From the NCBI GenBank assembly GCA_973895155.1, contig OZ316897.1:21489455-21553454 (forward strand): a DNA stretch of 64,000 bases, read 5' to 3'. The position numbers were made by a program, and so were the translations under genes. The notes under the pieces are model-generated. The model saw only the letters and a program-made list of their open reading frames with translations. It ran no database searches and was not told the origin of the DNA. The DNA is from Marsupella aquatica (taxonomy: Eukaryota > Plantae > Marchantiophyta). Of the stretch, positions 3,651 to 33,534 are shown in pieces (position 1 is the stretch's first letter; each line of letters opens with the position of its first letter).

Positions 3651-4051
3651 AGGAACAAAGCAATCATCAACATACACCAATGCAGATCAAACATACATGC
3701 AAAATGAATCTACAACACCGTAACACTAGTATGAGACCAATCTGGAATATGAAAACAGAACATGAACTTGACAACTCCATCTACTGAATCAAATTTGCAA
3801 TAGACATATCAACACAGACATCAGCTTGCAGTCTGGCCCCAGTCCTAGATCACGCATAATTCTGACATTATGCTCTATGTTCCGATTTCGGGCCTCCTCA
3901 TAAGGATTCACAGAATGTGACAACCCTTGCAATCTTCCTTTCACAGGCTGCATTCACCAACTGCACAAATGGGTAAACCATTAGTCTGATTTCATAAATA
4001 GTCCATACATGTAGTCCATCTATGGACTTCACACACCTAGCTAAAACCTAT

Positions 4052-8021: not shown

Positions 8022-8618
8022 GCTAGCTTGATTGAAATTGTATTCAAACTATGATTTTCAAACTGAATCAGAGTGACATGCATACAAAATTGGGCCTACC
8101 GTCACAGTTGTACAACCGATGCCAACCACAGTCCAATTGCTCAAACCCACAGAGCCCAGTTTCTCAAATCCACTGTAGTAGGGCACCTTCTCCTTGCATA
8201 CAAATAGAGCATCACATACAGTGTCATCATAATGATACTATGAACGTAAATCTCTGTGCCTTCATCATTTCCAGTATTTGTTTGCCTATTAGGAATGTGA
8301 GCAGACAGGTCTGGAATAAGTAACGTTTGTGACACCAGTGACAAATTTACAAGTGAAGTTTAGACATCAATATGGAGGAAAGTCACACTCAAAGTACATG
8401 CTTGAAAATCAGAATCCTACCCTGGAAAAGATAATAAAGTTGATTTCTCAAAATTAATTGCCTCAATCCGCAATGCACTGTCGTAGAGTGTGTATACATG
8501 AGGAGTTCATCAAACTGCATATAAATAGTCCACATGTTTTAGCACTCTGAAAATTGTTTAAATCCACGTGAAACCATGAAAAAGCTCTATCTCAAGTTTG
8601 TGTTCGATCCAGCCTCAA

Positions 8619-9278
8619 TCAAATCCAAGATATGTGGCTCCTAGCAGGAGTGCCTAGTGTAGGGTCAATGTCATGGTCAGGACAGTAAAACATCCCCTTC
8701 TTGGGCTGCCCATGCGCTGAGTGATCCCAAATTGTTCGATCATGGGCAAATCCCCTCTGCTGGATAAACAACAAGCAGTCCTTGTGCCATGCCTTAGGAC
8801 ACCTCATGCACTGAACCAAAAAGCCATTAGCCCCATCATTGGGCCCCTGTCCACAAGTAAGACAAATATGGAGTCCACATGATGCTGTGCTAGGAACCAA
8901 ACACTGCCGACAGTAAAACCGGGCACAGAGAGGGTTTGGACATTTTCTTACCTCTTCACCAATTTTTCCAGACACATGACACTTAAAGCAAGAATGTTCA
9001 TCATTCTTGCAATCAACACAAAGCCATTCTCCAACATGGCCATCAGCCAGGGATATAGTTGGGCATAGCCATTGCTGACCCAAAGGACAGGAAACATTCT
9101 TATGGAAATGTCGGTGGCAAGGCCCATCACAAACAATGAGATCCCCTCCCTCATCACAAATCGCACATACATGTGGACTATTCTGGTTAATCTCAATGTC
9201 TGAATATAAGGACAATTGAGGTGCTTGAGAGGATTCACCTCTGCAACGATTCATGGCCTTCTGCTTATTGCGAGCCAT
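8619..9278 (-). CDS. Intronless EDM2-type atypical triple-PHD finger protein (~219 aa), transposon cargo
   Basis: VCAICDEGGDLIVCDGPCHRHFH...CVDCKNDEHSCFKC...CGLHICLTC...CMRCPKAWHKDCL...FYCPDHDIDPTLGTPARSHISW follows the EDM2 PHD block, including its HxIDxxLxTPxRxH tail. ATG at 9278 is preceded by a CAG splice acceptor. Confidence 0.85.
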   Translation of the reverse strand: MARNKQKAMNRCRGESSQAPQLSLYSDIEINQNSPHVCAICDEGGDLIVCDGPCHRHFHKNVSCPLGQQWLCPTISLADGHVGEWLCVDCKNDEHSCFKCHVSGKIGEEVRKCPNPLCARFYCRQCLVPSTASCGLHICLTCGQGPNDGANGFLVQCMRCPKAWHKDCLLFIQQRGFAHDRTIWDHSAHGQPKKGMFYCPDHDIDPTLGTPARSHISWI

Positions 9279-11599
9279 GGTCCTGCACACTCAGACCTAC
9301 ATCAGATTGTGAAACACGAAGGAATAACAGGGTGCAGCATGACACAAAGGAATGAGGGTGCAGCATAAAATATGACATGTAACCACAAGGGTGCAGCATA
9401 AACCAATGCTTTATGGATGGCAAAGCATTTAGGGCTGAGCAGAGCCCTAACCTTGGCCTATGATTGGAAGCAATCACAAATATTGCAACCTGTATGCCTT
9501 CGCTTGCTGTACAGCAGTGCTCACTCACCCTGCCTTTTTAAAATCTGTAAGGGCAACACAGAACAAATAGCAATTGAGTTTCAGCAAAGCATTCATTTGG
9601 CTCTCAGGTTTTAAAATGGACAAACAAACACAACGATGTGCACAACAAAGCACAGAGAGCAACAAAACTCCAGCAAACTGGGACTCAGGCAAGAGACACG
9701 AATTTTAGCAGCAAAATCAAATCAAGATAATTCGGACCTGTAAGTTCAACATGCAGTGCTCACTCACCCTGCCCTTTTTTAAATCTGTAAAAACCAAGTT
9801 TTATTGCGTGCCTTCTACATCTTAAGCTGCTGCACACATCTGTTACAGAACCATAAGTTGCTTTACTCTCAACAAGCTAGCTGCTGGTCCACCCACTTTT
9901 TCAAAAGCTGCACCGTACTCTATCTTCGTGCAGTCGTGGCATTACCGGGCTGCTGTCAGAGACCCTTACAAAGAATTTAAAATTGACCAAGCTGATTTTA
10001 GTTTAGTTTCGTCTAGTTTGCAGACCAAAGGAAATAATGTGGCTGTATTCATGGAGTTGTATTCATTGCTGTGTATGGATGTTGTGTGAACGTCAGACAG
10101 TTAGCTGTAAATTACCATAGTTGAAGAGCAAGGCTTGTACAAAAGCCACTGAGGAATTCTCTGAGGTGGCACAGCAGTTGGCAAACCATACACAAAACTC
10201 TGAAACTTTTTGGCAACAGAATTCTACAGAGTCGTTGCCGGAATCCAGTGAGGATTCACCATACATGCCTGCACTTCTCTTCAATAAAAAAAAGAGAAAA
10301 GAAAAGGGCTATGATACAGAGGGATGTCAAAAGAAGAGTAAGGAAACCAATTGATTGAGGAACACAGACAGACTAAGGAAAACATCATACAATGGAAAAA
10401 TAAGGACTACATTGTAATAATAAGAGATCAAGCTCACCTTGCACCACAGAGATTGTCACGAGTCACCTCGCAGTTCCTCGCAACTTAGGTCCAGGATGAC
10501 ATTTCAATATGGAGGAAAGGAGTTTACTCATTTAAAACAGAGAAGGAGTGGCATCTACAGGGACTTTGGGAGCACACTCAAAAGGTTTGCGATACATCAG
10601 GTTATCTTTCTAGGTCAGACACTGCCAATAGAATTTTGAACACAACAAACACAGCAAACACTGCCAGATATAGAATTTTGAACACAAGGGTACGGCATCC
10701 AGATTTGCCTAAACTCAATCAACTTAATAGCATATTTTTATGTTCAATTAGGCAGCACTAAATAGAACAGCCTTTCACGCAGTCAGAATAATTGGCAATA
10801 ATTGCCAGACGACAACAAGACAACAAACTGAGCTGAACATAGCAGACAAAACAAACTGCACTCAATAGTAGACTAATACGGCAAGTAGCAATCAGAAATC
10901 AACAGCAGACAGACAGAGGACAACTCGGTCAAAACTCGGGCACTTGATTTAGTTGTGGTAAATAGGAGAAAGCTAAGAAACAGAGAGAGAAAAAACCATT
11001 TCTTAGCAATTGGATCTGTCTGCGATCTCCGCTGCCTGATTACAATCAAGAAGATTTTGCCAAAACAAACGATAAAGCTGAGGTGGAGTCATTCAAAGCC
11101 CAAGTCTTGATACTTCGTCAGAAGCATGATCAGTGGAGCGCTCAGCTACGGAGGCATGGGGTTTTGGAGGACGAAAGGCTTTCGCGGGCAGTGCAGGCAG
11201 CCGTTCAGGTTTGGGAAGATTTTGCCAAAACAAACAATAAAGCTTGAAGATAGTTAAATTTCTTAGGTCTCTGATAGTTAATGGAAGGTCGCAGTGGAGC
11301 CAGCATGGGACAGGGAAGGAAATGCAGGCACTTGTGATGCAATAGGCTACAGAGGGTGAGAAGGTGGACAACCAATTGAAACTCAACAAACTCAAAGAAC
11401 ATGTAGCGAATGGCAATAGAATAGAAGATCAGAGAACATGTAGCAAATGGAGAGGGATAGATAGAGAAAAAACATAAGCAGAGAGCTCTGGCACACAGCA
11501 ACACAGGTCCCAACACAGCACATTGCAAGTCCCAGGCTGGAGTGGAGCCGGAAGTGGAGAGCACAGAGCAACCAGGCAAATCACAACATGGGCGCCAAT

Positions 11600-12799: not shown

Positions 12800-15700
12800 C
12801 AAGATGACAGCGTGAGTGACCCCACTTTTAGTCATTCATATTGAAGCACTATTTAATTCACAAATGACCCAATGAACTCCCTTGTACCTCCAAAGAGAAC
12901 CCCCCAATAGCCTTTGTAAGGACCACATTTCCAATCATTTGGAACTTCTTACCTGTAGTATGACAACCAAAATGACCCTAATTTGAGGTGTTTTCATTAA
13001 TGACACACCATGAGGGACCTGTCTAATGACCACAAATATGACTATAAAAATGACCCTATATGTAGTCATTGGCATTAATGACACACCATTATGTGAAAAT
13101 GACCCAATGAAGAGTACATTACCTCTCGGAGTGCCCCCTTACAATTCATTTGGAATTTAATAGAATATATCCAAATCCAAATATCGGCACAAACATGACA
13201 TAGTTATATAGAAGGACATAGTCTTCCACTAGTATTGCATTATATATCTCTTGGAGAGACAAAAACAATTTTTGTTTGCCGTTTGGATAGGACAGTATGC
13301 ATGCAGGGTACGTGACACTTTTGGCAAATCACTCCAAAGTTGTATGACTTGGGAGTGATTTCCCCAAAGTTACATTGTGCCTAAAGTAAATGCAAAACAC
13401 AGCTCCAAAGTGCTACTGGTGCAACTAGTGGTTGGAGAATGGTAAATATAGTATTTTGCACCTAGTAGAGGGGTTGCGAGCTCTATGTGGGGCCACATGG
13501 CACTCTAGGGCCCGCCTCCAACCCTTAGCCCCAAATTGGTCATTCATGCTTGTCTCCAATGATTGCACTAGGGACATCTCAAATGACTCAAAGTCCAGTC
13601 ATTTGCCTTATATGACATCCCATATGACCAATTCAATGACCCTGCTTGTAGTCATTGGCAATTATGACACGACTTTGTTAAAAAATGACCCAATGAAGGT
13701 CCTAGTACGTCAAGAAAGAGGCCGCTTTAGATTTCTTGTAAAATAGGAATATTCCTATTCCTTTAACCAACACACATGTCCACCGTAGAGGGAAGCACCA
13801 CTACCATGCCCATCCCATTGGTGTTGCACTACCTCGTTGAGGAACTAAACAAATGGCTCCATTTGCCTTAGGAACATAAGATATTCATGATCCATGTTGG
13901 TGCTTTTGGCAAATCACTCCAAAGTTGTATGACTTGGGAGTGATTTCCCCAATGTTGCATCATCCCTTAAGTAAACGCAAAAACTCACATGAGGTACGGT
14001 GCTAATGGTGCAACTAGTGGTTGGAGAATAGTAAATATAGTATTTTGCACATAGTGGAGGGGTTGCAAGCTCTATGTGGGGCCACATGGGACTCTAGGGC
14101 CCACCTTCAGCCCCTAGCCCCAAACTTGTCATTTGTGCTTCTGTTTAATGACTGCATGAAAGGCCACACAAATGACCACAAGTCTAGTCACTTGACTTAT
14201 ATGACTTCCCATATGACAGTTTTAATGACTTGACTTTTGGTCATTGGCATTTATGACAAGTCATTGGTCACATATGACCCAATAAAGGCCCTAGTACCTC
14301 CAAAGAGAACCCGCAATTGCAAGGTTGGAATATTCCTCTTCCCTAAACCCGCACCCACACCATACTGAGAAGCACGATTCCCCTGCCCATTCCATTGGTG
14401 CAGCACCACCTCTTGGAGAACCAAAAAACAAGTTTTATTTGCCTTTGGATGTGATGGTGTGCATGCATGGACACACTTTTGGCAAATCACTCCAAAGTCA
14501 TATGACTTGGGAGTGATTTCCCCAAAGGTGCATCATGCCTTAAGTAAACATCAAAACATGTGTCCAAAGTGTTTATGTTGCAACTAGTGGTTGGACAATG
14601 ATGAGTATTATAGTGTCCCGCACCCAGTGGAGGGGTTCTCACCTCTATGTGGGGCCCCATCGCACTCTAGGGCCCACCTCCAGCCCCTAGCCCCAAACTG
14701 GTCATTAGTGCTTGTGTTTAATGACTGCATGAGGGACCACACAAATGACCACAAGTCCAGTCACTTGACTTATATGACAGTCCATGTGACAAATTTAATG
14801 ACCCTACTTGTAGTCATTGGTATTTATGACGGGCCATTGCTCACATATGACCCAATAAAGGCCCTAGTATCTCCAAAGAGAGCCAACTTTAGATTCCTTG
14901 CAAGGTTGGAATATTCCTCTTCCCTAAACCCGCACCCACACCATACTGAGAAGCACGACTCCCCTGCCCATTCCATTGGTGCAGCACCACCTCTTGGAGA
15001 ACCAAAAAACAAGTTTTATTTGCCTTTGGATGTGATGGTGTGCATGCATGGACACACTTTTGGCAAATCACTCCAAAGTCATATGACTTGGGAGTGATTT
15101 CCCCAAAGGTGCATCATGCCTTAAGTAAACGCCAAAACATGTGTCCAAAGTGCTTATGTTGCAACTAGTGGTTGGACAATGATGAGTATAGTGTCCCGCA
15201 CCCAGTGGAGGGGTTCTCACCTCTATGTGGGGCCCCATCGCACTCTAGGGCCCACCTCCAACCCCTAGCCCCAAACTGGTCATTAGTGCTTGTGTTTAAT
15301 GACTGCATGAGGGACCACACAAATGACCACAAGTCCAGTCACTTGACTTATATGACAGTCCATATGACAAATTTAATGACCCTACTTGTAGTCATTGGTA
15401 TTTATGACGGGCCATTGCTCACATATGACCCAATAAAGGCCCTAGTATCTCCAAAGAGAGCCAACTTTAGATTCCTTGCAAGGTTGGAATATTCCTCTTC
15501 CCTAAACCCGCACCCACACCATATTGAGAAGCACGACTCCCCTGCCCATTCCATTGGTGCAACACCACCTCTTGGAGAACCAAAAAACAAGTTTTATTTG
15601 CCTTTGGATGTGATGGTATGCATGCACGGTGACACTTTTGGAAAATCACTCCAAAGTCATACGACTTGGGAGTGATTTCCCCAAAGGTGCATCATGCCTT

Positions 15701-17059: not shown

Positions 17060-20000
17060 GTCATTTAACACCGTTGGTTAAAATGACGGAAATACATTTT
17101 TTGTCATTTATCACCGTTGACCAAAATGACCCAAATAAATTTTTGGTCATTTCAATCATTGTCCAGAGTGACTATAATGGTGCTAAACATTGATTTATCA
17201 TTGTTGTTATTAATTGCGTCATTTAAGACATGTGTCTAAATTGACCATTTAGGGAAATTGGGTCATTTTGGTCACATCAGTCATTACAAACATTATACAA
17301 AATGACGCAAAAGTTAACATTTTGTCATTTCAGTCTATTGGTCATTTTGGACAGTCATTCTCTTGTCATTCTTTTTGTGTCATTAGAAATTTTGGTCATT
17401 TATTCATCTCCGTCATTGGGTGATTGGTCATAAAGGGCCCTGTTTTCTTCTAGTGCCCTCTCATGGTTTACTTTTCAACTATACCGTCTCGAACTCTGGT
17501 GGCTTTACCTTTACCTGCTTTGATCGGCGTGGTTTGTTGACCTTTTTGTTTCTTTGCTTTCGGTCGATCGATAATTCTGAACTCGGACGTGCTAGTTATT
17601 GGTCTCTTAACTCCCTTATTAAGCTGGTCGTTATAGCTGAGCATTCTCGAACGGCAGACTAACTGACAGACAAGTTTAGCACAAAGTACTCCCAACTTGC
17701 ATTTTTGATAGTTTAGTTCGTAGTTTTCAATTCAGTTCTAATTGATCTTGGCGCCTTCCATGCATGCAGCTGTGATGTCAACAAAAGTTGCGTTCATGGA
17801 TTTGGCGAGGGTCGACCATCTTCAAAGAGTTGTTAAGCTCTTATGGGACGTTGAGGTAAAGTTCATGCGTTTGCTTCATTTGCATTCTTCAAATTGTGGT
17901 TTTGTTTAAGAGATCATTGTGATCTTCAAGCCACAGAAGTGTGGAAGGTCTTCAAATCCGCGATCAGTATAGACACCTCTGATCCGCGGACATAACCAGC
18001 AGTAACCTCATTTTCCTCTGACATAATCAGCAGTAAAACGCATCCACATTGAGCTGATTGTAGCCCTTTCCTTCTTCAAGTCCTCGATCTTCAGGACTGC
18101 ACATGCTTGCCTTTGATCATCTCCATCTGAGTTCTAATCTAACCACCCTAGACTCTCTCCTATTCTGTCGAGTTGGTGTTCCCTGCTGGATTCATTTGTG
18201 TGCCGGTCCTATCTGCTGATTTCTTCTCTTTCCAGGGATCTCCAGTAGGTGATTCTCGGTGACTCACTCCTAGCCTGGAGTTACTTGGCCGTCCGTCTGC
18301 AACAATGTATGCTTGGAGAATTTTGTCGGCTCCTTCCTGACTGCCTCAAATCGAAGTCGAGGCTCTCCTTCACTATCCTCGGCTCTCGCCATTAATTGGC
18401 TGTTTTGGTCTCCTACTGTCTCGTTGATGTATATGTATCTGTGATATTCTATTCTCTTCCCTCCCGTCTAGCGGGGTCGGGAGTATATTACAGGTTTGTT
18501 TCTACTTGATAGGGTTGCTGACTAAAATATGTATATTCTAGCTGATGCGCATTCAACTTCTGTTTGGTGCTCAATTTGGAGTCTACTTATTCCGTTGCAT
18601 GGCTTGGTTTTCTCGTATTGGACTTTGTCTGGGTGATGCGCCTTTTACTCCCCCACCGGGCTGTTTCGGATCTTTGGCTGGAGACTTCCTTTTCACTTTG
18701 GCTATTGGCAGTTGCCCTCCCCCGGAGACTGGAGTTACATCTGCATGATTGTGCTCCGTTCTGGTCACCCTCTCTTGCCAAGTGCTTCTGGTTCAATACG
18801 CTCAAGATGTACAAATGATAGAAGTTGTCCCATAGAATCCAAGTTTTCCATGCTACCAAGTGTTAACTTCATATCTGGATGATGTAGGCTCGTGGAATGG
18901 AGACTTTGGCAGCACAGGTGTTGATCAATGAAGTAACCAAGCGTGGAGGCCAATTGACTCACTATGACAGGTATGTGATAACATAAACCACTAATGACAG
19001 ATGACAGAGGCTCGATGTCTCTCCTCTGGTTGACATGAGATAAGAGTAGCTAGAAATCTAGATTTTGTTCATATATTGAAAGCCAGACACTGCAGGTAAA
19101 CACAGGCTATGAGACTCCACTTCCTTCCATTTGGCAGCATCAGGTCTGGTCATAATTATATAGCCTCCTTGCGTGACCGAGGAAAGTCATATATCCTATT
19201 GTAAGGTGGTGGATATAGGAGCCGCAACATACTTAGTTGTGCAGACACATAGACGGAAGGACAACAGTTTCAAACCTAGCTTGAGCTACCGGCAGTTCTC
19301 ACATTCTGTTTTAACATCGCTCAAGATAGAAAAGAATACTGCTAACACTATTGAATTTCTGGATGCATGGCCCAGGATTAACAAGAAGACAACAATCTGA
19401 GCCCAACAAGTGACCTGTCAACAAACAGCCATTCTGACTTCATGGATGAGAATTCTCAGCCCCGAGTGTACTGTGCATGCAAGTACAAATGTGCCCAGAG
19501 TGCAGATGGTTATAACATGATTCCTAAGACCACCCGTAGACGTCACTCTCATAAAGATGACATAGGGGAAGTCTTTCAATATCCTAGTGCTACTACCCAT
19601 CCTCCAGGTGTTACTTGTGATATGAACCCCCAGGATATGAGCTTACAGCAGGAAGAGCTTGGTTTCAATATGGATTCTGGCAGTCATTTGAGGCTAGCTA
19701 AGTGCATCTGCCAATTATGTGGTGAGATTGGAAAAATGATTCCAAGGAATACCCAAAGGAGGCATATGAGCATCAATAGTTGGGCACAGAGATTGCGAGT
19801 AAGAGACTCAACATTTGACAAAGGTAATGAGGCCACACTTGAAGAAGATCTGAGAATTGAAGAGTTACAACACTTTGTCTCAGGTACAGAAGAAGAAACT
19901 TATGATCCCAGAATGGAAAGCTACCCACACGAGGACCACTGGATGGAGGGTTTGCAACAATCATTCCAAGAGGAATATGAATTTGATGATAATTGTGTTG

Positions 20001-21073
20001 CAGGGCCGACTATCAACATCCATGAAGAGAAGGGAGAACCAGATCAACATAATACTGTGAACTGTTTGGATGATGCTATCCTAGAGACGGTGATAGAACT
20101 TTTTTCAGTTCTGGATCATCACAAAGTAAGCATTGCTTGTCAAAAGAGAGTCTTGAAAATATTATTTCGTGGCATGAAGAAAGACCAAGATTCCATTGAC
20201 ACTGTTGAGAATCCTATAGATTACAGAGGATTGTCTTTGGCAAGGCTGTTCTGTTTAGCTGGCTGTGAATGGAGTGGAGGTGAAAATGGGATGGCTGCAC
20301 CTCGAACTTGGGATTGACTGATGGAAGTATATGAGATGAATGGAATGACTGTTGTTGATAAATGGCAAATATGCACAGGAGAAGTAGGAGTTGAGCATAC
20401 TCCAACAGTTTTTAAGCTCTTAGATGAATACACCATGTGCCCTTTTGAAGGTTGTGGAATTGACAAATCCAAAATTTGTACATTCAATTATTTGCCGTTA
20501 GCAAAAATCTTCACTTCACTTTTTCAAAGCCAGACCTTTTGCTATGATATTCTGCGTATGTGGCAGAATCGATCAGAGTGGCTACCTGAGTTGGAACAAA
20601 GACCATTTCATATAGATGAGTTTTGGCATGGCACCAAGATACAGGAGTACAAGCAATTCTGGGATCCTGAAAGTATTTGGCAGCAACCGTTGATCTTTCC
20701 CAATGTCAAGTGCAGAAAGTCTTATCGATTATGGCCATCCATTTGTGAAGAGAACAAGAAGCCTTAAGGGATGAGTCCAAAGCCTTATTTCTCTTTTAAA
20801 AATCTTCATGATATTAAAAAGTGTATACCAAAAAACCACCAAAAAATGGTATGTATTTTCCAAACTAGACTCAAGAGAATTTTACCACCAAAATCTAAGC
20901 ATATCTTATATGATATTCTCACAATTGTATAAACCTTGAAATATGCACTTTATAAAAGTAATCGAAATCAAACTCATCGATCAGAGTTTAAGTCAAACTC
21001 AAAGTTTTACAAAATATAACCCAACTTAAGCCCAAGTGGTTTCAAATGCTACGAGTCCCTCTATTTATCTAGT

Positions 21074-24000
21074 CTAATCCAAAGGGACCGCTTCCCCTTC
21101 CTCGGTTCCGGAAGTCCCTGTCGTCAATTCTGGAACAATTGTGGCATCGTCAACCACGCTATCCTCTCCGGCCTGAGGAATGTCTTCCTCACTCTCCTCA
21201 TCCATCTCCCCCTGTCCGTCTTCCTCTTCAATGTTATCTGCAAGGTTAAGAATCCTCCCTTTCAACACACTGCTCTGTCGCTCGTCAATCTCAATGGCAA
21301 CGCAATGTCTCCCCATGGCCAAGGAGGAGGTTGTCCCAGTCCCTGATCCTGAACAAATATCCAAAACCCAGTCTCCAACCTGACTAAAATGACTCACTTC
21401 CCAATCTAACAATGCACGTGATTTCTGATAAACATTCACTGCCTTGTTATCCCCGTTGTGTTTCAGCTTCTTAGTCACAGCTGCGCATACAACCACATTG
21501 TTCCTTGATTCATTTGTGTCAAAATTGAAGTGCTCCAATGACCGTTTACCATCCTGGCTGTGAAAGCCAATTGTAAAGCACTCAAAGTTGCTGTTCAATC
21601 TTGGTCCACCAGCATTCTTCACATTATCCTTAACCCTGAAAAGTCACAAAAAGTCAAGGAGTTATTTAAACTAAGAAACATGGTTCATGAAATCATGAAT
21701 AACTAATAGTTGTTTTTTTCAGAAACAAATATTTCTTACCACACACAATTCTGGAACCCTCCATTACACTCCGCTTTCAAAACGGTCTTGATGGCCTCAT
21801 ATTGGTCAAGGCTGTGGTGAATGATAATACGCCACAACTTTGCAGTAGTAGCCACCTTGAACGATTGGACCATTTTTGTGATCTCCTCAGTTCCCCATCC
21901 AATAGTGTCTTCATGAAGACATCCAGGCAATGCAAACCCGTAGGGAATATCCACTAAAGCTAATGTGTAAGCCCGACCCGGAACCACCTCATGTAATCGC
22001 TGAGCATCATGAGTAAAAATATCATAGTGCACATCACCAAACTCTGGATGCTCAAACGAATTTGGATGAAGTTCCCCCTCTTGGGTTTGCCGACTAGAAG
22101 TCTTCATGGATAGCCAATTTTGGGCTTGCACAATATGCGCATTGAATTTGTCCGGGAATGACTTGAGATCTTTGCCTTCCTCATCTCCCTTCTTTTTCCG
22201 GGAGGTGGTATCTTTCTACAAAAAGGAACTGTAGAATTAGAAACAAGGATTCCAAATATTAAATGAATTCAAACAATCATTCGAAGAAAGGTGACAGAAT
22301 CTTACCCATGTCTGGAAAATAGGTACGAAATTCTTAAGCACATTGTCTGTGCAATGCTCAGGGTACTTGGTTTTACAACCTGACCAACTCTCCTCGTGTA
22401 GACACGTGAGGAAGGCCTTCTGCACCTGCATCTGAAATTTGTGTCGAGTAAATTCGTGACCCATTTCCTGTAAAGAGAGTTCTTTAGTAAGAACTCTCTG
22501 TAACACTGGGCAAATCATATCAGGATCTTTCAAGGCCTGCATGTGTCTCCACTCTGTTAATTTCATGTCCTCATAAGGCAATTTGGCATCTCCAGACTTA
22601 GAGACTTTCTTCTTGCCTTTGTCTCCTTTTTGACCTTTGATCTCACACATCTCCCACTTGTCACAAATCTGCCTCACAAATGACCACACAGGATCTTGTC
22701 GGAATGCCAACTGAAATAGGTTATCATTGGCATTAAGAACCTCAGCATCCTTTCGTACACCCCAATCCTTGAGATTGATTTCAGTAGCACACTCTTTCTT
22801 GAAATCCTGGTTGGACGACAATCCATTCTCAACAAATCTCATGTGAATATAATTTACTCTCTGGATTGTCGTCATCTGTTGTCGAAATTCAGAATCAATA
22901 TTGTGACTCCACGCCAGGTTTCTTGCCTCTTGCACACTCAATCCCGCAAATATCCAAGATTGCACTCTCCAAAATGCCTTGTTGTTAGGGAACTGAAGAG
23001 CAAGGTCTGCTTTGGCACAGGCTGAATGGTTGCCCCCAATCACATAATAATGGTAATCAGCTTTCCTTGAAAAATCAAAGTCTTGCCTAGTAGCACACTC
23101 CTTCGGATCCACCAAGAGGACAAACGGAGCTGCAAGTGGACTGGCACCTACAGTCTTCATCCGCAAGGTCAATTGGGTCAAGAAATATGGTTGGATGTGT
23201 CGGACCTGGTAAATGGGCAAGCCCACAGCCTTCTCTCTCACTGGAGGATAAAGTTGACCAATGTCAACGGTCACGGTCTCCTCTTGAACACCACATCTTC
23301 CCAGAATCTCCTCCTGGTACAATACCCGTGCATCCATTGACATTGATTGAGCCTTTTGCTCCAAATGCGTTGGAATTTTCTCCAAAGTCTTCTTTTTTGA
23401 CTTTGTAGCACTGGGCTCGGTAGGCTCAGGAGTCATAGCAGGTCGCTTCTTTGAAGAAATGCGAGTTCCAGTCGTACCTTGTGCCGACCCACCAGTCAAA
23501 GCCGTTCCCTGGGATGATCTGCCAACTTGAGATCCCCCTCCAGATGCTGTTGCTTCCCGGGAGGTTGTAGGCGCTACCACGGTCAAAATATCATTGGGTA
23601 AAATGCTAGGCCTGGATCCAGAAGGAACACCGGAAGCCCCAGATTTGGGTGGACGACTTACTCCCTTCTCTGCCGACCTTTTCCGGAGAATCTCTCTTGA
23701 TTTTCGGATTGCACTCTTTAAAGTGCTAGCGTGAAATTCAAACACAAAACTAGAAATCTTTCCCGCGACGTCGTGGTAACGTTCCTCACTCGAAAGAGAC
23801 TTGACAGTCTCAATGATGCTATCGATGTCCTTATCGAGATAGCAGGTGGCAGCCATTCCAGAAAACCTCTCCACATCCACGACAATCAAAGTTGATGTTT
23901 CCTTTGTTGTGATCAACATGTTCACAACTTCGTCGCCCCGTCGAAATACATCGATGCGGCCGTAATTTACCCACCCTAATGCCCCCGATGGAAGCCCCTC

Positions 24001-24135
24001 AAATACACACAGCATTAGGAAGGGCTTCTTCCATGTTTTCGTCCCTAAGGAAATCGTCCAGGATGAGTTGTGGAAGTCCGTCAAAGGATGGCGCGAAAAG
24101 ATGTCATCCACCAGCTCTTCCTACGACATTGTCAT
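21074..24135 (-). CDS. ParB/Srx-like domain + beta-class N4C/N6A DNA methyltransferase fusion (~955 codons, 3 exons; TAG at codon 5)
   Basis: Exons 24135-22306, 22215-21740 and 21635-21074 join in frame at GT-AG sites. ParB-like YQVRHI...YYVIGGNHS...LAWSHN. MTase motifs YTLALVDIPYG (IV), CVWVKDN..NFE, YQKSRALL..EVSHFSQVGDWVLDICSGSGT (X/I) and GRHCVAIEID. Confidence 0.85.
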
Positions 24136-24300
24136 GTTTTTGCCTGATCTTCAAACCTGAGAACATACCACAAAATCAGTCCACTTCAACCCCAACCTGC
24201 GAGACAAAGTGCCACAGAACCAAGGAATGTGCCAACAAATGGCTACTAAAACCGTGTCCTTACGGATCTAACAACGCTCTCGGCCACCCCAGGACTCCTA

Positions 24301-24366
24301 TCATGAATTCATGAAGGGAGTCTCCCTCTCGCTCCGACCTTCATGAATTCATGAAGGGAGTCTCCT
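24301..24366. promoter_or_regulatory. Duplicated palindromic TCATGAATTCATGA-AGGGAGTCTCC element in the divergent promoter
   Basis: Two copies 40 bp apart (24301 and 24341) between the head-to-head methyltransferase and transposase genes. The regulatory role is inferred. Confidence 0.45.
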
Positions 24367-24914
24367 CTCTCTTTGCTTGTACACCTCGGTGATGCAGAAG
24401 GGTATTTAAAATAGGGTTCGGAGGGGGGTGACTTGAAGAAATCACCCAGGGCCTAAATTACTACCTAAAACAGGGTCGAAATGAAGTGCGACCGCGACAA
24501 CTTGCGACACGTCGCCGATGAGTGCTGAAAATGGCACGAAATTGGACACCGAGATTGTTTTTCACTCTTTTACAAAGGAAATCCAAATGACATTGAGTGA
24601 AAATGAATGGGCTGCCCCGTGTTCCTTGGTTATACATACTAATCACGGATCAGGCGCGACTTAGTAAAATTAACCCCGAATCATGATAAATCAATGTTTT
24701 CGGGCCAATTATTCATGAATATTTCGGGGTATTAACGGGAAAAAGCTTGCAAATTTCATGAATATTTGATATTTTTGAAGTTAAAAAGTCCCAACAATCC
24801 GTGAAAAACTATAAATAGGCTCGTTTATTCATGACTCTTGGTCATTATTTTGAGAAGATTTGTTAGATTTTACTGATTTTCTGAGTTTCTTGTCAATTTG
24901 CACTAGTTTTTCCA

Positions 24915-27900
24915 ATGGCGACATGTTACGAATCAGATGATTATTCAGATGGAGTTTCTGATGATGTTTCATTGCCGGATGGCCCCTGCACAGTGGTTGG
25001 CCCAGATATCCCTGGAATAACTATTGTTTTAGATATGCCACCCCCCACCCCTATGAGCAAGTTAAAACGTAGTCCTTTACGACTTGCAATTAGTGGGAAG
25101 AAATCATTGGTCGGTGGTAAAGAGAGGTCAGGGAGCTCCTCTGACTCCTTGGAGAGTATTGGTCCCCCTGGACGTCAAGTTGTATCTCCTTTGTCACCAA
25201 CAAAGGACAAATTGGGGAGTAATCTGGAAGGTTCAATGCCTATTTGGATGTCTGGGAAACGGTCTCATGAATTCATGAAGACTGGATTTGGAAAGACGAT
25301 GAAGGCACTAAGTGGGGAAAATGACAGAGATTTTTGCAGTCTCCAAAGTGTTCAGCGGTTGAAGCAAATGCCAAAAAGTAAAACCTTTGGTAAGCCAACG
25401 TCGGAAACATTTCACAGGGGGATGAGGGAAGAAACTAGACGACCAGTGTTATTGAAAAGTATTCCAGAAAAGAATTCTAATGTGCATTCCTCAGTTTTAC
25501 CTAGGAGTCATGGTGTTGGGGCAGGGAGCGGATCAAGTCACGGAAACTCAAACAGGGAAACCAACCTGGTGGAGAGGGACCCTAGGAAAATATTGAAAGG
25601 GTCCCTACACGGTAATGGAGGGATTTCTGAAATACGCCCAGGTATTCCAAGGGTGCATAGAGTGAAGGAAGAGCCTCCATCTCCGAAGGCTGCAGGTCTG
25701 GAATCTAGGCATGTTCAGAAGCAAATGTTGGTGACCATTTCATCATCGAATGAAAGCGAGTCTTCGGAGAGTGGGGAGGATGATGTTGTTCCGGTGGCAT
25801 CTAGTCGTTACAAACGTACGAGCAATGCCACTTTGTGTGAAACAAAGTTGAAAGAGGAGGATATCAAGAAAACAAATAGTAAGTACTGTTGTCAGAGTCA
25901 TTGTCTCCTAAGTCTATCTCCAAAAGAAATTCGTGAGGCGCGTTCTAAATTTTTGAGGCAGAAATCTCAGGATCGATCTTTATCTTTGCAGTGGCTTATA
26001 AAGCGAGACAGAAATGAAGGAGGGAGGCAGACTATATCTTACACGTTTGGTCAAAAGAGTATTTGTCGGAAAGCTTTCAAGCTTATATTTTGCGTTGGCA
26101 ATCATAGATTAAATAGAATTTTGAAATTAGACAACCAAGACTTAGGATATTCTAAACCAGTTGGACGCCCTCCATCTGTTAAAAGATTAGTCTTGGTCAG
26201 TTGGCTTAGGTCGTTTTTTGAGACACGCGTGGAAACATTGCCAAATAAAGAAGTTTCACATTTACCGGATAATTATTCAAAGCTGGAGGTATGGAAGATC
26301 TACGACTCCAACTATGCCAAGATTGATGAATCTTCAAAAATATCCTATCGACAATTCTTGAAAGTTTGGGTTCAAGAATTTGGTCATGTGAAGATTCCTC
26401 CAGTCAATCGATTCAGTGCTTGCGCGGATTGCGAGGAGTTCAAATCAATTCGGGACAAAGCTGTCTCGGAGACCGAAAAGAGTAAGTTACTTACAAGTTT
26501 GACAAGTTTTTGTTTCAAGAATATGGCTTAACACATGATTTCTAATTTTTTTTGAAGAAACTAACAAGTTGTTTTTCCAGGGCGAGGGGAAATTATGTTA
26601 CAAAAACATAGAGACCAACAATCCAAAGAACGTGAGAAACTCGTGAAGCATCGTAAGAAATGTTTTTCAAATTCTGATAAATATTTGGGAGTTGTCATTG
26701 ATGGGATGGATCAAAAGAAGACAAGGTTGCCTCATTGGCCGCGGCCCCCAAAATCGGTGGACGAAACATGTTTGATCCAAATGCACGTTGTCGGATGCCT
26801 GGTTTTCAATGGTGCACTATTTTCAAGAGTGTTTCTTAATTATCCTGTATTGCATAATGATGGAAACTTGACAGTCACAATCCTGCAAAGGGTGTTTCAC
26901 GAATGGGAAGAAAAGCCTGGTGGCTTGCCGCCTGTTCTCTATCTTCAACTTGATAATACCAATAGAGAAAATAAAAATAATTTACTCTTTGCCTATCTTC
27001 ATATGTTGATTCGAAGAAAGGTTTTTCGGAAAATCAAACTAGGATTCTTGTTGGTTGGACACACACACGACCAAATAGATCAAATGTTCAGTCGATTTTC
27101 TAAACGACTAGCAAGGTTTAAGGCATTCACATACGAAAGCCTATGTGATATTATTTGTGAATCATATCAACCCCAACCAAATATCACTCTTTTAAAGGAA
27201 ACATATGATTTCCGTCAATATGCCCTCTCAGATCCACCTTTAGTCATTGAAAGGATTCGAAATGTTACCTTCCACCACCAGTACAAATTTGCATTTGACA
27301 AGTTGGAAAATCAAGTTCCAACCCAATGGGGGAAGAAGTTTTCCACGGACTCAACTTGGAAACCTGACGGAGGCATGAAATTTTTGAGGGAAGAGGAGCC
27401 AGAAAAGGTGATGGGTTGTGCTCCCGGATTACCCCTTTTCAAAAAGGGGGATAAGAACGTTACAAGGACTCAACCAAATATGTCTAGTTCTTCAAGAATG
27501 ACTTTGAAGGAGATGGATGATTCGTTAAATGAGATTCAAAAGGGAATACTTGCAGTTGAAACTTTATTCTCAGAAGAGGAAGTGAACTGGTGGAGAATGT
27601 TTTTTGAAGAGCAACGGGAATTGAATAAATCTTTGCTCCTTGATCAAAGACCATTGATTTTCCCTTTTCAATGGCCACGCTCCCAAAGGGAGATTGCTGT
27701 TGCTGCTGAAGTTCCCAGAGTCCTTGTCAATGAAGAGGAAATTGAAGAGAGAGTATACGGACCTACCAGAGATATATACGTGGGTCCTTATCGGAATCAA
27801 GGAAAGATAGATGTAGAGAAGGAGAATATGGAAGGAGACTTTTCGGATCTTGAAGTCAACACTTATATTTCTGTTGCTGGAGAAGAATCGGAAACATTTT

Positions 27901-28313
27901 GGGTGGCCAAGGTGGAAAGAATTGACCAGCGCGACGAGTTCAACATTCCAAAAATGATTTATGTTTTATGGCATGCTACAAAAACCGGGTCAGATCCTTG
28001 GAAAGCCAAGTACTTACCAGAAGTCTTAAACTACGAAAAGAAGAAAAGTGGTCGTGGGAAAGGAACTTTGAAACCAATATGGTTTCACCAAGAGCTTGAT
28101 TTATCTTCAACGATTGTTTTTGCTTACAACTTCATGTTGACAAAATCTGATACATTGTACAAAAAGACAGTAGATCGAATCAAAATCCGATTGACTGAAT
28201 TTTTGGCAGAAGAGAAAGAGCAAGAACAAGAGAATGGATCAACTAGAACCCCGCTAGGAGATAAATCTAGGGATATTTCGTTTCAAGAATTGAGGACTTC
28301 TGGATCTGAGTAA
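24915..28313 (+). CDS. Sola-like DDD transposase, intact, 2 exons (~1099 aa)
   Basis: Exons 24915-26481 and 26581-28313 join in frame. Cys-rich CCQSHC / ICRKAF / CADC region; catalytic-type motifs VVIDGMDQKKTRLPH, LYLQLDNTNRENKN and FLLVGHTHDQIDQMFS. The 4-bp TSD is consistent with Sola. Confidence 0.85.
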
Positions 28314-31300
28314 TGAAAAGTAGTTATTGTTTGTGACATTACCATTGAAAAACATGGATAACTTGAAATTTTACAAATTTTCAAAATGCCTTTACCACTT
28401 ATTCATGAATTCATGGTTAAAGTTTCTTGAAAAATTTGTAGTTTAATATTATCTTAGTGGGTTGTGTTTCAATTCAATTAGATGGTGTCATTTCTATTCT
28501 CCTTGTCTTCTTTTCACAATAATGTGTATCAGGTTAAGTTGTAGTAATTTATTTTCTGGTTTTTAAATGACAATGGCTTTTGGAGGTGATTTAGTTGTTG
28601 TTTCAAAAGACACCTCGTGTAATTGTGAGACCATTGTAGATAATAGTGTTGTATTTGAGATCATTTATTGGTGGAATGAAACTTCAGATGAATTTGGTCA
28701 TTTTTAGGTGTCAAAACATAGCTAGTTTATGTCATATTTTGTTCGCTCCATATTTTTGCTCTAAAATAGGTGCTAATTTTTGCACTTTTTTTGACTTTTT
28801 CGTTGTTTTTCTGATTTTTTGGCTAGAGTTCCTAAAGTATGGGCTTGTTACTCATCATTTAAGGCTTCTTGTTAGAGTTGGAGAATGAGGAAAATTTTGA
28901 CAGGGAAACCGGTTTCTATCACTTTCCATGTGTTGATTGCGCCACAGAGATTCACCAAAGAGCCAAGGATGTGAAGGTAACATATATACTAGTTCCTAAT
29001 TATACATAGTACATTATTACAGAAGAGAGCACAACCTTCATTGACAATTTTACAGACTCAATCTTTATTGTCTACCAAAGATGAACATGATTGAAATTGC
29101 TTATCTAATACAATTTTATCTTGTGAATGACAGGGTTCACCATTTAACATAGCTGTGATGGGACATTGGGATGGCTTTCAAGCTGCAACCACTGTCCAAA
29201 AGGATTGCTGGACAGTGGAAATTACTATCCTGAATGGTGGGAAAAGAGTATTACCTGATTCAAAAATTGCAAGGCCTATTCCTCTACTTTTTATTCCTAT
29301 GTCCTCTAAGTTATTACAAAGAAAAAAAGAACATCACTTGTTACAAGCTTTTCTGAAACCCCAGTGGGCTGACTTTCAAAATAGTTTTGTCAATGGCTTC
29401 CCTGTGAAGTTAGATTATCCTGTGCCTTCACTCATGCCAAATAATAGGGACAGGCACATAATTGTTCGAGTAATACCCATGCTGTGGACTGGTGATGGGC
29501 CAGCCCAAAGTAAGATTGGAGGTACTTTATTGATGGGATACAACGGCTGTAGACGTGATCTCTTGTATTCAGAAAGCATTCTGTCAAATACAGGAAAGAA
29601 AAAAGTAGTAGTTTACAGTCAAAACAGAAAGCAGGTTCGATTCCCATCAATCAAAAGGGATGTAGAAGGCATGTATTATTTTGGCAAATGCTTGAGAGAA
29701 GCTACCAACGAAGAACAGAAAACAGAGTACAAGAGACAGAGTGGTTTGTCACACTATTCAGATATGTGGTCCTTATATGATACTCATGGATTTGACATAT
29801 CACTTGATTTAGTCAATGATCCAATGCATTGCTTGGCACTTGGGGTGTTCAAAACTTATAATGACAGGTTGTTACAATCTTGTAATGCTGCGGAGGTGAA
29901 GAAGCTGATGAAGGTCTTACAGATTGTAACTAACAATCGGCCAATTGGACTAGGGGCTCGCTGGCCACGTCCTCCTCTGTACGTGAAAAATGTACTAGGT
30001 ATGGGATCAAAATGGAAGTTTTCCAATTATAAAGCAGAGGAACACTTATTATTCACAATGTACTGTGCGGCTCCTATCTTGGAAGAATTGGGGCACACTC
30101 TTGCCACTCCCCTTGGTGCAGAAGGTGCAATTCTCATTCACTTGAGCAGAATGTTTTTTCTTGTTTCAAGAAAACATGGATGGACAATTGATATGCTTCA
30201 GAATGCAAGACTTCATCTTTCTGCTTGGAGAGTGCTTACAGAAGAAGCATATGGCCCAACTGGGCGAATAGTGGAGCATGTCACTGGTATGTAAGAACAC
30301 TGTTTCTACTATAAAGTTAATAATACCATAAATTTATTTTTAACTAAATATTATTGAATGATCCATTTGAACTTTTAAATACTGATGTGTAGCTTTTACT
30401 TTAGACTTTGTGACTGTTGTAGTTGCCATTGATGTAAGTACTTGCCTGGTTTTCCAGGGAATGGTGAAATTTTGGACGACATAGTTTGACATGGCCATCA
30501 TGATATATTCTGGTGTTATGGCTTCGAGCGTATGGTTAGTGGATACAACAACATCACTACAAACAGTAAATCGAGTGAGATGAGTTTTGCACAATACTTT
30601 TGCCGTCAACAATTTTCAGAATTGTTTTTTCAATTGCAGCAAGACAAAGATGGACTCCACAGGGACCAGAGAACGTTGCATATATTACAATGCTCTTTGT
30701 ATCCACGTATAGTTGGACTTGCAGTGGGAGATTTTCTGAGTCCCACATTGTACAAAAGCAAGGTGTCTATGGTGACTAGTATAGAGAAAGCAACTCAGTT
30801 GTGAACCTTGGTGCAATATATGGGTCGCTTTGACTCTTCTTGCATACAGGTTGTAGCCAAAGGAATTGGCATAGGGCCAAACGAAGGTTTGGAGGTTGAT
30901 ATACTTCCAGATGGAGAGATTTCACAACATCTTAGGTCACATTGGGTGGCTGAAAATGTTCTGAACCCTACTAATGATTACCTGTTCAGGCCTCGAATTG
31001 AGATTATTCGAGGGGTTGTTGTTGATGGAGTGCACTACAGGAAGAATGACCTTGCAGTGGTTGAGAATAGCAACAAGGAGAGGCCATCGTTGAAATGTAG
31101 AATTAAATCTTTTTTCATCCATGCATTTGACAGTCACTACCAGATTTTTTTTTAGGCCTGTTGCTATACTGAGGTGTCCATAGAAGGGGATGATGGTGAG
31201 GAAGTGTTGTTCAAAACAGATAATACAGACATGAATTTGCTTCTGGATGACCCAAGTGAAAGCCTTGGAAGTAAGGTCTTTCCAGTGTTTAGCCTTAGGC

Positions 31301-33534
31301 ATAGATTCATTTCACACCCAACAAAACAAGAACCTATAGGTAAAAAAGCAATTGTGGCATTCGAGTTTCAAGATGCTGTTCTCCGAATGCATTTGTTAGT
31401 GCCTGGGAAACCTGGGTGTTGCCCTCCATGGCCTTTGTGCAACGATGTTGTCATTGTTTCACTAACTGCTAGTGGACCTCACGCAAATTTCTATTTGGCA
31501 CACATCGTTAAGGTTCACTATGATGCAGAAAATATTGAACTGCAAAATAGAGATAGGAAAGTAGAAGTACTTTGGCTAGCTCCTGATCAATCAAGTGCTT
31601 ATGAGGTTAGTGAGCATGAGTTCTTCAAAGTATTTTCTCCAGATGAAGTTTTTACTTTGCTGTGGCAAAACATTATGACAGTTCTGGACCCTACCTTGTT
31701 TTCAAAAATAGATTTGAGAGGGTCCACCACCATGAGATGGAAAGCACCAAAAAATTGGACCAGCAGTTTGTTTTTGAAACGGGACCAGTTAAAAGCTCCC
31801 CCTAGACAACCTGGTTTGTACAATAAATCAAGATATCTGATAGGAGAGTGCTAGCTAGGCATGGGTCATATCCACACTCTTCTTGCAATAATAGAGTGAT
31901 TCCAGATAGATTTTGATCCACTTCTTGCTCAGAAGCCAGGACCCAAGCTTGTGAGACCAAGGAGGCTCCACATACCTGATCATGACAGATATTACAAAGC
32001 TAATCAATTTGAGGCCACTGGCAGGTGAGTCACGTCCTGGGTCACATCCATTTTAGCTACTGTCTTAAAGAATTTGTCTTGAGTTCTTTGTGGTGAAATT
32101 GAAGGAGTCACAGGTTGATAGGAGTTTAGTAGGTGGTAAGCACATGAAAAATAATTTCACTTTGCATAGTATGTCAATAATTCTACAATGACGTGAGTTG
32201 ATGCTGTACACTTCTTAATTTGCAGTGCGGCAGAGCAGAAGCATATCAACATGAGAAAAATAGAAAGGAGTTGCTTCGAATGAATTATACAACGGTTGAT
32301 CTCTTACATATGTGAGGTCAGTCTCTTCTTCTTAATGCCTCCCTGATCAATACAGGGGGTTTCTCACCGTTGTGCTTTAGTCTTTGAATAAGTGTGCCAT
32401 TGTAGCTAGTTAGTAAATTCTATTTATGCTGAATCTTAATTAGGCTTGCTATCCCACCAGGAGGCCAGTGATGCAAAGCAACATTCTTATGCGCTAGATG
32501 CTTAGTTCTCAGGCTTCTCGATCATACCAGTTTGGAGGAAGGCCACTTGTAGTTGTATCAGTGAATTTTCTTTGTAGAGGATACAAGTTATCCCTCCTTT
32601 GTATAATCTGCATGTGTTTCAGAGCAATTAGTAATTAAATAGAGGGAAGCGCTTCAGTATGTTTTGAAACCTGCTAGATCATCTCATGGTATATAGTTCA
32701 AGCCTTCGTTCATGCTCAATCATGTAAAATTCAGCTGTTTACAATTCTTTCAGCAAGTTACTGACTATCAGTGGCCTTTCGATGAAGCAGAGTACCTGCG
32801 CAAACATCTCAACCAGCCACGTACTTGAGTATGTAGCCGGTTCACCCACAAAAGTTTTGTGATACCCGGGCGACCCTAGAGGTGCTGTTGTGTGAATTTA
32901 TCTGTCCACTGAATTTCGCCAATGGATCTGAGTGCTACTTTCCCTGATAAGGATCCACCACAATGGCTGAATCTCGACGACAACGACAAGGGAAGACTGT
33001 ATGTGAATTGGCTTTAAAAACTTATAATTGCTTTAAAGACTATCGATATGTTGATTGGTACAGGTACAAAGTTATAGAGGCGGCCGTGGTTTCTCTGCCA
33101 TCCTCGCCTCCAGTAATTAGAATTAATCTGCTCTCAAAAGTCCCAAAGTTTTGCCAAGCTTAATTACAAGAAATCTCTTCAGTCATATTCCTGTCATGTG
33201 TCAATGTACACATGCAGTTCGATTTTCTTATTGAACTCTGTCACGTTCGTACTACTCCTCCCTTCTCAAGATTTGCACTTTGTTTTAACTTCCGCAGGGT
33301 TTTGCACGTAAAGCTTCGACAAGTTAAAAGCCGATACCGGTGCAAAGTCACTATGGGAGATTTCTGCACTTAGATTCGGTGTAAATATAATTTCCACACC
33401 ATTCTTAAGTGCATTTTACCTTTTCACCTCTGTGCATGAGATGACGGTGCATTTCTCAAAAGTCATCTGTGCAAAGCAGGAAAGTTTTCCTGTGAAGAAC
33501 AAAATCCTCAAATCCACGTAGCTTAATTTCGTCA

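What the first reader, a model, noticed from the sequence alone, without database searches (positions are those of the whole stretch)
20753..28873. Sola-like DNA transposon carrying a prokaryote-type ParB + N4C/N6A DNA methyltransferase gene
Seen: a cleanly bounded 8,121-bp unit (15-bp TIRs, AGAG TSD, in-frame empty site) with exactly two head-to-head genes, an intact DDD transposase and a spliced ParB-like/amino-methyltransferase fusion. Established: motif IV before motif I defines beta-class amino-MTases (N6_N4_Mtase family) typical of bacteria and phages, where ParB-MTase fusions also occur. Eukaryotic 4mC writers from this family are known in bdelloid rotifers (N4CMT) and Marchantia sperm (DN4MT1). 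Inference: this is a mobile epigenetic-writer system. It may mark its own DNA with 4mC/6mA to evade 5mC silencing or to regulate transposition, and such elements could be a source of domesticated plant amino-MTases. I do not know of a described Sola element with this cargo, but cannot check novelty here.
Basis: partly seen in the sequence, partly recalled or inferred. Interest (0 to 1): 0.93.

Follow-up and report, generated by a model that had tools for sequence, protein, structure and literature searches.

The report
Plant transposon carrying ParB-methylase helper gene
This is a real, multi-copy jumping gene, likely from a liverwort, that carries a bacterial-type DNA-methylase helper gene (broken in this particular copy) and a conserved mirror-image DNA word the helper is predicted to bind so as to keep the element switched on, a design already reported in seaweeds that here extends to land plants.

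Summary
The 8,121-bp element is real: 15-bp perfect TIRs, AGAG duplication, empty sites in 4 of 7 sequencing runs, an open 1,099-aa DUF7869 DDD transposase, and a head-to-head, spliced gene with a ParB-like fold plus a beta-class amino-methyltransferase. Both genes travel together in a multi-copy family, in a distant metagenome contig and as adjacent Riccia genes; relatives occur in Calypogeia, Adiantum, Ginkgo and Chara, under purifying selection. Motif IV is DIPY, never SPPY, so 6mA is likelier than 4mC and kinship with DN4MT1/N4CMT is unsupported. New here: a palindrome TCATG-N4-CATGA at matching positions in three diverged elements, and about fourfold more silent CpG than neighbouring transposons. 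Likely mechanism: the protein binds the palindromes and methylates its own element to keep it expressed; untested. The design is published (Sola1-1_Ec32, Ectocarpus, 2025) and this scan noted it earlier in animal and microbial DNA. Verdict: new land-plant member of a known, functionally untested kind.

The parts
20749..20752 (+). left target-site duplication AGAG
   Evidence: empty-site contigs
20753..20784 (+). left TIR (15 bp perfect, 27 of 32 overall), begins AACAAG
21074..21635 (-). helper gene exon 3: QK(P) region, motif I (SAM binding), acidic tail, stop
   Evidence: PF01555 E 2.9e-7
21636..21739 (-). predicted intron 2, holds one palindrome (21686-21697)
   Evidence: GT..AG, frame kept; junction matches annotated Calypogeia protein P0013; relatives stop matching at its borders (table 7)
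21740..22215 (-). helper gene exon 2: motif IV DIPY at 21951
22216..22305 (-). predicted intron 1
   Evidence: only this acceptor keeps the frame; diverged relatives skip 22217-22301
22306..24135 (-). helper gene exon 1: ATG 24135, N-terminal beta domain (weakly PH-like), low-complexity linker, ParB/Srx-like domain (GGNHS at 23037), helical region
24121..24123 (-). premature stop at codon 5, minority state; family majority reads Gln
24302..24353 (.). pair of palindromes TCATGAATTCATGA, 40 bp apart, between the TATA-like box (24403) and the helper gene start
   Evidence: same pair in L001 (317/359) and L002 (1234/1274)
24681..24834 (.). four TCATGA half-sites around the transposase TATA-like box (24810)
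24915..26481 (+). transposase exon 1 (Cys-rich motifs); one palindrome at 25266
26482..26580 (+). predicted transposase intron
   Evidence: skipped by a diverged relative
26581..28313 (+). transposase exon 2: DUF7869 core, predicted catalytic D563, D647, D689
28404..28415 (.). palindrome downstream of the transposase gene
28842..28873 (-). right TIR
28874..28877 (+). right target-site duplication AGAG
19382..20748 (+). interrupted host gene, left part; itself repeated, probably an EnSpm/CACTA-like transposase gene (continues right of 28877)
   Evidence: frame restored; flank variants and depth; weak pairwise match to the CACTA-like ORF of the window, E 8e-5; no Pfam hit

Best explanation
This is a decaying copy of a young, multi-copy Sola1-like DNA transposon family whose helper protein likely binds the element's own TCATG-N4-CATGA palindromes through its ParB-like and helical part and is predicted to methylate adenines (6mA) in the element, which would keep both promoters active and delay host silencing. 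Shown: boundaries, two-gene layout, co-occurrence across copies and lineages, purifying selection, beta-class MTase fold (on a 58-62% identical homolog), conserved palindrome positions, CpG retention, and this copy's nonsense codon. Inferred: liverwort host, splicing, DNA binding (about 0.7), catalytic activity in intact copies (about 0.8), 6mA over 4mC (about 0.8), activating effect (about 0.55). The window copy can no longer make the full protein and would depend on intact copies in trans.
For: Family: depth is flat across both genes and far above the flanks in 4 of 4 runs (X1: 484-1081 inside, 42-73 outside) and covers the whole element in X6; long X1 contigs differ at 20 of 4,663 bases. 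L002 (56% identity) has the same head-to-head layout and introns. Riccia tags 010795/010796 and 010553/010555 pair DUF7869 with ParB-like+PF01555 genes, 2 of the 2 PF01555-bearing Riccia proteins seen. Selection: pN 0.11-0.29 against pS 0.65-0.84 in the ParB-like and MTase parts. Fold: CcrM Z 24.0 (217 aligned, 2.6 A), then BceJIV, MboIIA, RsrI, HpyAVI, all 6mA enzymes, ahead of N4CMT 19.7 and PvuII 19.6; the profile ranks 6mA enzymes at E 1e-19 to 1e-15, N4CMT 3e-8; motif IV starts with D in 92 of 102, SPPY in 0 (SPPY = 4mC, DPPY = 6mA per PMC8885841). ParB/Srx fold: the top 8 rows are all of this family, PadC Z 8.6, KorB 7.2. Palindrome: 5, 3, 6 copies in window element, L001, L002 (0.24, 0.07, 0.07 expected), 0 in the other 56 kb, at matching places although silent sites are saturated. 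Silent CpG o/e 0.50-0.63 in the three elements against 0.16 and 0.10 in neighbouring transposon ORFs, host gene 0.91 (59/287 vs 15/323, p 2e-9).
Against: No activity, binding, RNA or modification data. This copy was evidently methylated by the host: 22 of 31 listed differences are C>T/G>A, 18 of 22 in CG/CHG (27% expected), so any protection is incomplete. CpG retention has no control of DUF7869 elements lacking the gene and would also follow from recent arrival from a host with little 5mC; other unannotated parts of the window also reach CpG o/e 0.6-0.9. Ectocarpus carries the design with negligible 5mC. The ParB match is moderate (Z 8.6, near the tool's warning level), Foldseek found nothing, and the arginine of the GxxR CTP-binding motif (recalled) is replaced throughout the family, so a CTP-driven sliding clamp is doubtful. 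DIPY departs from DPPY. 6 of 8 Riccia ParB-like proteins seen lack the MTase and had no DUF7869 neighbour among the 48 listed. The Z gap between 6mA and 4mC enzymes is small, and motif rules have exceptions.
Confidence: 0.48

Rival explanations
1. The helper is a KorB-like autoregulator: it binds the palindromes as operators and, with its methyl mark, represses or times its own and the transposase promoter, limiting transposition.
For: The palindrome pair lies just downstream of the helper's TATA-like box and half-sites flank the transposase TATA-like box; KorB, a repressor of the ParB family, is the second structural hit and spans both domains; the design persists where 5mC is negligible.
Against: Does not explain CpG retention or sites in an intron and in coding sequence, which resemble VANC target placement (PMC5735166).
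Confidence: 0.25
2. The palindromes are transposase sites and the methylase serves the cut-and-paste reaction (marking ends, target immunity or protecting the element from its own nuclease).
For: Transposases can be sequence-specific activators themselves (10.64898/2026.08.24.746577, passages); one full site lies 470 bp from the right end.
Against: Full sites are internal (promoter, intron, coding), not arrayed under both TIRs; none within 900 bp of the left end. ParB-family proteins bind palindromes (PMC8494293 abstract listing), and inverted repeats accompany ParB-like genes on an unrelated transposase family.
Confidence: 0.12
3. The methylase domain is catalytically dead or nearly so, and the protein works only as a DNA-binding scaffold.
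For: DIPY, DLPR and other departures from DPPY occur; several Riccia models lack the domain.
Against: D..Y of motif IV, QKP and the GSG SAM loop are kept together across Chara, ferns, Ginkgo and liverworts; exon 3 is the best-conserved part (73-81% identity).
Confidence: 0.12
4. One-off capture of a host or bacterial gene by a single copy.
For: This copy's gene is broken.
Against: Flat depth over both genes, same layout in L002 and Riccia, purifying selection, transposases with such neighbours in two separate well-supported clades.
Confidence: 0.02

Closest known systems
Sola1-1_Ec32 of Ectocarpus (PMC12477816; passages, reference list and supplement table rows seen, figures not)
   Same: Sola-type DDD transposon, 4-bp TSD, termini starting AAC, a ParB-like + N4C/N6A methyltransferase gene on the strand opposite the transposase; the authors propose self-binding and self-modification.
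   Different: 21.5 kb with 282-bp TIRs and 2 intact copies, in a brown alga without 5mC; here 8.1 kb, about 32-bp TIRs, a young family in a host with CG/CHG deamination. No binding motif was described in the passages seen. Direct sequence comparison was not possible.
Plavaka accessory genes PAG2/PAG3 of red algae (10.1101/2025.02.11.637652; passages)
   Same: Transposon-borne PF01555 methylase and ParB-like domain; inverted repeats beside the ParB-like gene proposed as its binding sites.
   Different: EnSpm/Plavaka transposase; the methylase is fused to SET and the ParB-like domain to a 2OG oxygenase, in separate genes.
VANC anti-silencing proteins of Arabidopsis VANDAL elements (PMC5735166; passages)
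   Same: Works-like analogue: an accessory gene whose product binds a short element-specific motif in upstream regions and introns.
   Different: VANC motifs are non-palindromic tandem arrays and VANC removes 5mC without a known methylase domain; homology not tested.
MpDN4MT1 (Marchantia) and N4CMT (bdelloid rotifers) (10.1101/2021.02.12.428880, PMC8885841; passages)
   Same: Eukaryotic beta-class amino-methyltransferases of prokaryotic type.
   Different: Host genes with SPPY that write 4mC; this family has D-x-P-Y, is fused to a ParB-like domain and sits on transposons.
Beta-class 6mA methyltransferases CcrM, M.BceJIV, M.MboIIA, M.RsrI; ParB/KorB/PadC
   Same: Best structural matches of the two domains.
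   Different: 14-22% identity; no close prokaryotic or phage relative found; GxxR arginine absent.

Membership tests
Sola superfamily | DDD transposase | tested here: met
   three conserved aspartates: first in 11 of 13 rows, second and third invariant; catalytic role inferred; feature list from PMC10741241
Sola superfamily | 4-bp TSD and TIRs, mostly 2-9 kb | tested here: met
Sola superfamily (Sola1) | transposase homologous to Repbase Sola1 proteins | not testable with these tools
   no Sola profile or Repbase here; defining papers not held; only DUF7869 could be assigned
Sola1-1_Ec32-type element | ParB-like + amino-MTase gene opposite the transposase | tested here: met
Sola1-1_Ec32-type element | homology of the helper to the 1,104-aa Ectocarpus protein | not testable with these tools
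   sequence not in hand; an Ectocarpus sp. DUF7869 protein was hit at 36%, identity with Sola1-1 unknown
beta-class amino-methyltransferases (PF01555) | motif IV before motif I, permuted Rossmann fold | tested here: met
   fold on homolog P0013
beta-class amino-methyltransferases (PF01555) | methyl transfer to DNA | not testable with these tools
   needs an assay
DN4MT1 / N4CMT 4mC writers | SPPY catalytic motif | tested here: not met
   0 of 102 family motifs; window DIPY
DN4MT1 / N4CMT 4mC writers | shared clade in a tree | not testable with these tools
   their sequences were not in hand; tree lacks them
ParB CTPase clamps | ParB/Srx fold | tested here: met
   top 8 rows all ParB/Srx, best Z 8.6, 97 aligned, 3.1 A; moderate, no Foldseek or Pfam hit
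ParB CTPase clamps | GxxR arginine for CTP binding (motif recalled) | tested here: not met
   GG[NGT]H[STCY] in window, Riccia, Chara, Adiantum
ParB CTPase clamps | HTH after the ParB domain that binds a palindromic site | tested here: inconclusive
   helical region aligns loosely to KorB (rmsd 14) and HTH domains at Z about 4; palindrome present, binding untested
VANC proteins | VANC sequence homology; demethylation of cognate elements | not tested
   functional analogy only

The most novel reading that the evidence does not exclude
Streptophytes from Chara to liverworts, ferns and Ginkgo harbour a transposon-encoded, sequence-guided adenine methylase: a ParB-derived protein docks on parS-like palindromes and writes 6mA over its own element, keeping it gene-like and expressed. 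This would be an anti-silencing system that works by writing a prokaryotic mark, with a predicted target word and a source of genuine site-specific 6mA in land-plant DNA.
Probability: 0.35. Interest if true: 0.85.

Novelty: new member of a known kind. Interest (0 to 1): 0.56.

Why it matters
The published claim that such helper proteins bind and modify their own transposon rests on a few sentences and no experiment. This family supplies what a test needs: a compact young element in a plant lineage close to Marchantia, a specific conserved candidate site, a base prediction (6mA), natural broken copies as controls, and a sequence signature (CpG retention) expected of anti-silencing. If true it adds a mark-writing route to the transposon-host arms race and a compact targeted methylase.

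Tried and rejected
No RNA holder listed. Viral contigs gave no locus for three queries, prokaryote genomes none, annotated phages none; these word-based searches do not exclude distant relatives. Foldseek on the exon-1 model found nothing; the N-terminal domain matches PH folds only at Z 4-4.7, inconclusive. A dimer prediction could not be queued: no verdict. The MTase tree is the quick search, has three prokaryote-like rows only and gives no donor. Reading the TAG at 24121 as a splice acceptor was rejected: no pyrimidine tract, and homologs start with Met in register. Acceptor 22229 was rejected (breaks the frame). One control ORF was misframed and corrected. Runs X5 and X7 hold mainly diverged relatives and were not used for counts. 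Literature: searches listed no land-plant Sola with this gene; Repbase, Iyer et al. 2011 (ref. 50 of PMC12477816, not seen), subscription papers and the closed bioRxiv supplements (Bostrychia table S6) may describe plant members.

Full report
Observation. The unit 20753-28873 has 15-bp perfect TIRs (27 of 32 over a longer stretch) and AGAG on both sides; taking it out restores the reading frame of the interrupted gene. Contigs joining 20748 to 28874, with 4 letters fitting either side, are in runs X1, X2, X4 and X6, 4 of the 7 runs laid; the host sequence is itself repeated, so these are empty host copies or alleles. The plus-strand gene (ATG 24915, predicted intron 26482-26580) is open for 1,099 codons, matches DUF7869 at E 2.8e-51 and has three conserved aspartates. 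The minus-strand gene (ATG 24135, predicted introns 22305-22216 and 21739-21636) spans 955 codons; its junctions agree with an annotated Calypogeia protein.

Codon 5 of the minus-strand gene is TAG. All four runs read Gln there, a minor contig in X4 keeping the stop. Of the 40 best-supported differences shown (711 more not shown) 31 lie in the element; 22 are C>T or G>A relative to the majority, 18 of these in CG or CHG context against 27% expected (p 1e-7), and 19 of 26 coding ones change the protein, close to the neutral 66%. One turns the conserved YQKP into YQKS. This copy has been methylated by the host and is decaying; reinitiation at Met41 is possible but untested.

The family. Contig depth is flat across both genes and about ten times or more that of the flanks in 4 of 4 runs, and covers the whole element in X6. 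Depth is no copy number, but four long X1 contigs at depth 484-574 differ from the window at only 20 of 4,663 bases, which fits tens of young copies. A metagenome scan gave 2 loci from 124 pattern matches: L002 has the same head-to-head layout with the transposase start on the other strand, and both have the two MTase introns. In Riccia sorocarpa the two PF01555-bearing ParB-like proteins seen (R1sor_010796, 010555) each lie within two locus tags of a DUF7869 gene (010795, 010553); the other six ParB-like proteins do not, among 48 Riccia DUF7869 proteins listed. Those transposases and the window's fall in two separate starred clades (quick tree, 46 rows). Of 30 profile hits looked up by name (from 150 listed), named ones came from Chara braunii, Ginkgo biloba, Adiantum nelumboides and Riccia, and several carry the ParB-like region too. 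The nearest named relative is Calypogeia fissa (63%), so the host is likely a liverwort. Between window, L001 and L002, pN is 0.11-0.29 and pS 0.65-0.84 over the ParB-like and MTase parts; where dS is finite, dN/dS is about 0.06-0.10.

The protein. The exon-1 model (mean pLDDT 72) shows an N-terminal beta domain, a disordered linker, a ParB/Srx-like domain and helices. The top eight matches among 48,161 chains are all ParB/Srx proteins (PadC Z 8.6, KorB 7.2, SerK 7.2), but Foldseek, Pfam and PHROGs saw nothing, and the GxxR arginine (recalled motif) is absent across the family. The MTase domain, modelled on homolog P0013 because the window's is split by an intron (pLDDT 89), is a beta-class amino-methyltransferase: CcrM Z 24.0, other 6mA enzymes 20.4-23.4, N4CMT 19.7, PvuII 19.6 (Foldseek agrees; profile ranking). 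Motif IV begins with D in 92 of 102 family rows and is never SPPY, the motif of DN4MT1 and N4CMT. 6mA is the better bet; 4mC is not excluded.

A conserved site. CATG-N4-CATG occurs 5 times in the element (0.24 expected), 0 times in the other 56 kb, 3 times in L001 and 6 in L002 (0.07 expected; one L002 match looks like chance), and only with a 4-base spacer. Positions match: a pair about 40 bp apart upstream of the helper gene in all three, one in its last intron in all three, and sites in the 5' transposase frame in window and L002. Half-sites are densest in intron 2 and the intergenic region. I saw this before reading the scan's earlier notes, which report palindromes in animal and microbial elements of this design (unchecked notes). 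Silent CpG is far better kept in the three elements (o/e 0.50-0.63) than in two neighbouring transposons (0.16, 0.10) and approaches the host gene (0.91). A control family without the helper gene was not available.

Mechanism. Most likely the helper binds the palindromes through its ParB-like and helical part and methylates adenines in or near them, keeping the divergent promoters active in the copies that transpose; copies that lose it, like this one, fall to host 5mC. Confidence 0.48. The main rival is a KorB-like autoregulator (0.25); transposase-bound sites (0.12) and a dead enzyme (0.12) follow. Against a pure 5mC-escape role: the window copy shows 5mC damage and Ectocarpus has negligible 5mC.

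What is known. [quoted passage not shown] The Bostrychia preprint (passages) reports PF01555 and ParB-like accessory genes with inverted repeats. VANC (passages) is the functional analogue. Sola1 membership proper could not be tested; the features listed in a review (passages) are met. Searches listed no land-plant case, but Repbase and Iyer et al. 2011 were not seen.

Verdict. A real element and a real family; a new land-plant member of a recently described, untested kind, with a concrete candidate site and a CpG signature that make the self-marking idea testable. Interest 0.56.

Noticed in passing
L001:627-635 and window 24135-24121: L001 has a TAG at the same Gln codon just after the start (ATG TCG TAG) as the window copy, its only stop seen in about 900 codons; 72 codons of the window gene are one C>T/G>A step from a stop, 36 in CG/CHG context. 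Chance, a mutation hotspot or selection; unexplained.
   Followed up: partly
window 22303-23358 (-): The ParB-like/helical region scores 0.95-0.97 against ascomycete DUF3723 clusters in the ESM Atlas; DUF3723 is a conserved Starship gene (10.1101/2021.12.13.472469, passages). A lead that Starships carry a related ParB-like helper; Pfam itself did not match.
   Followed up: partly
window 19382-20748 and 28878-31854: The interrupted host is a repeated, strongly CpG-depleted element with a divergent EnSpm/CACTA-like transposase and no Pfam hit.
   Followed up: partly
window 20753-20797: Contigs in X1, X2, X3 match the left end for about 40-45 bp and then diverge, suggesting related or non-autonomous families that share the TIR.
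   Followed up: no
window 21361-21934 and 26527-27100: Runs X5 and X7 (other organisms) show very high depth on the transposase core, X5 also on MTase exon 3, i.e. abundant diverged relatives.
   Followed up: no
window 24157-24263 (-): Probable 5'UTR intron of the helper gene (GTAAG..CAG); diverged relatives skip 24157-24254.
   Followed up: partly
window 2259-9290 (-): CACTA-like transposase ORFs with a Cys/His-rich PHD-like ORF at 8619-9290 (by eye, not scanned); silent CpG o/e 0.05-0.10.
   Followed up: no
window 14588-15675: Two near-identical ORFs 581 bp apart, a tandem duplication.
   Followed up: no
window 54465-55706 (-): Single-frame gene that looks like a strictosidine synthase-like protein (by eye); used as the host-gene CpG control.
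   Followed up: no
P0130, P0138: A Chara gene model holds two ParB-like + MTase units in tandem; a Ginkgo model (Gb_37443) has the fusion with DIPH at motif IV; whether it still sits in a transposon or is domesticated is unknown.
   Followed up: no
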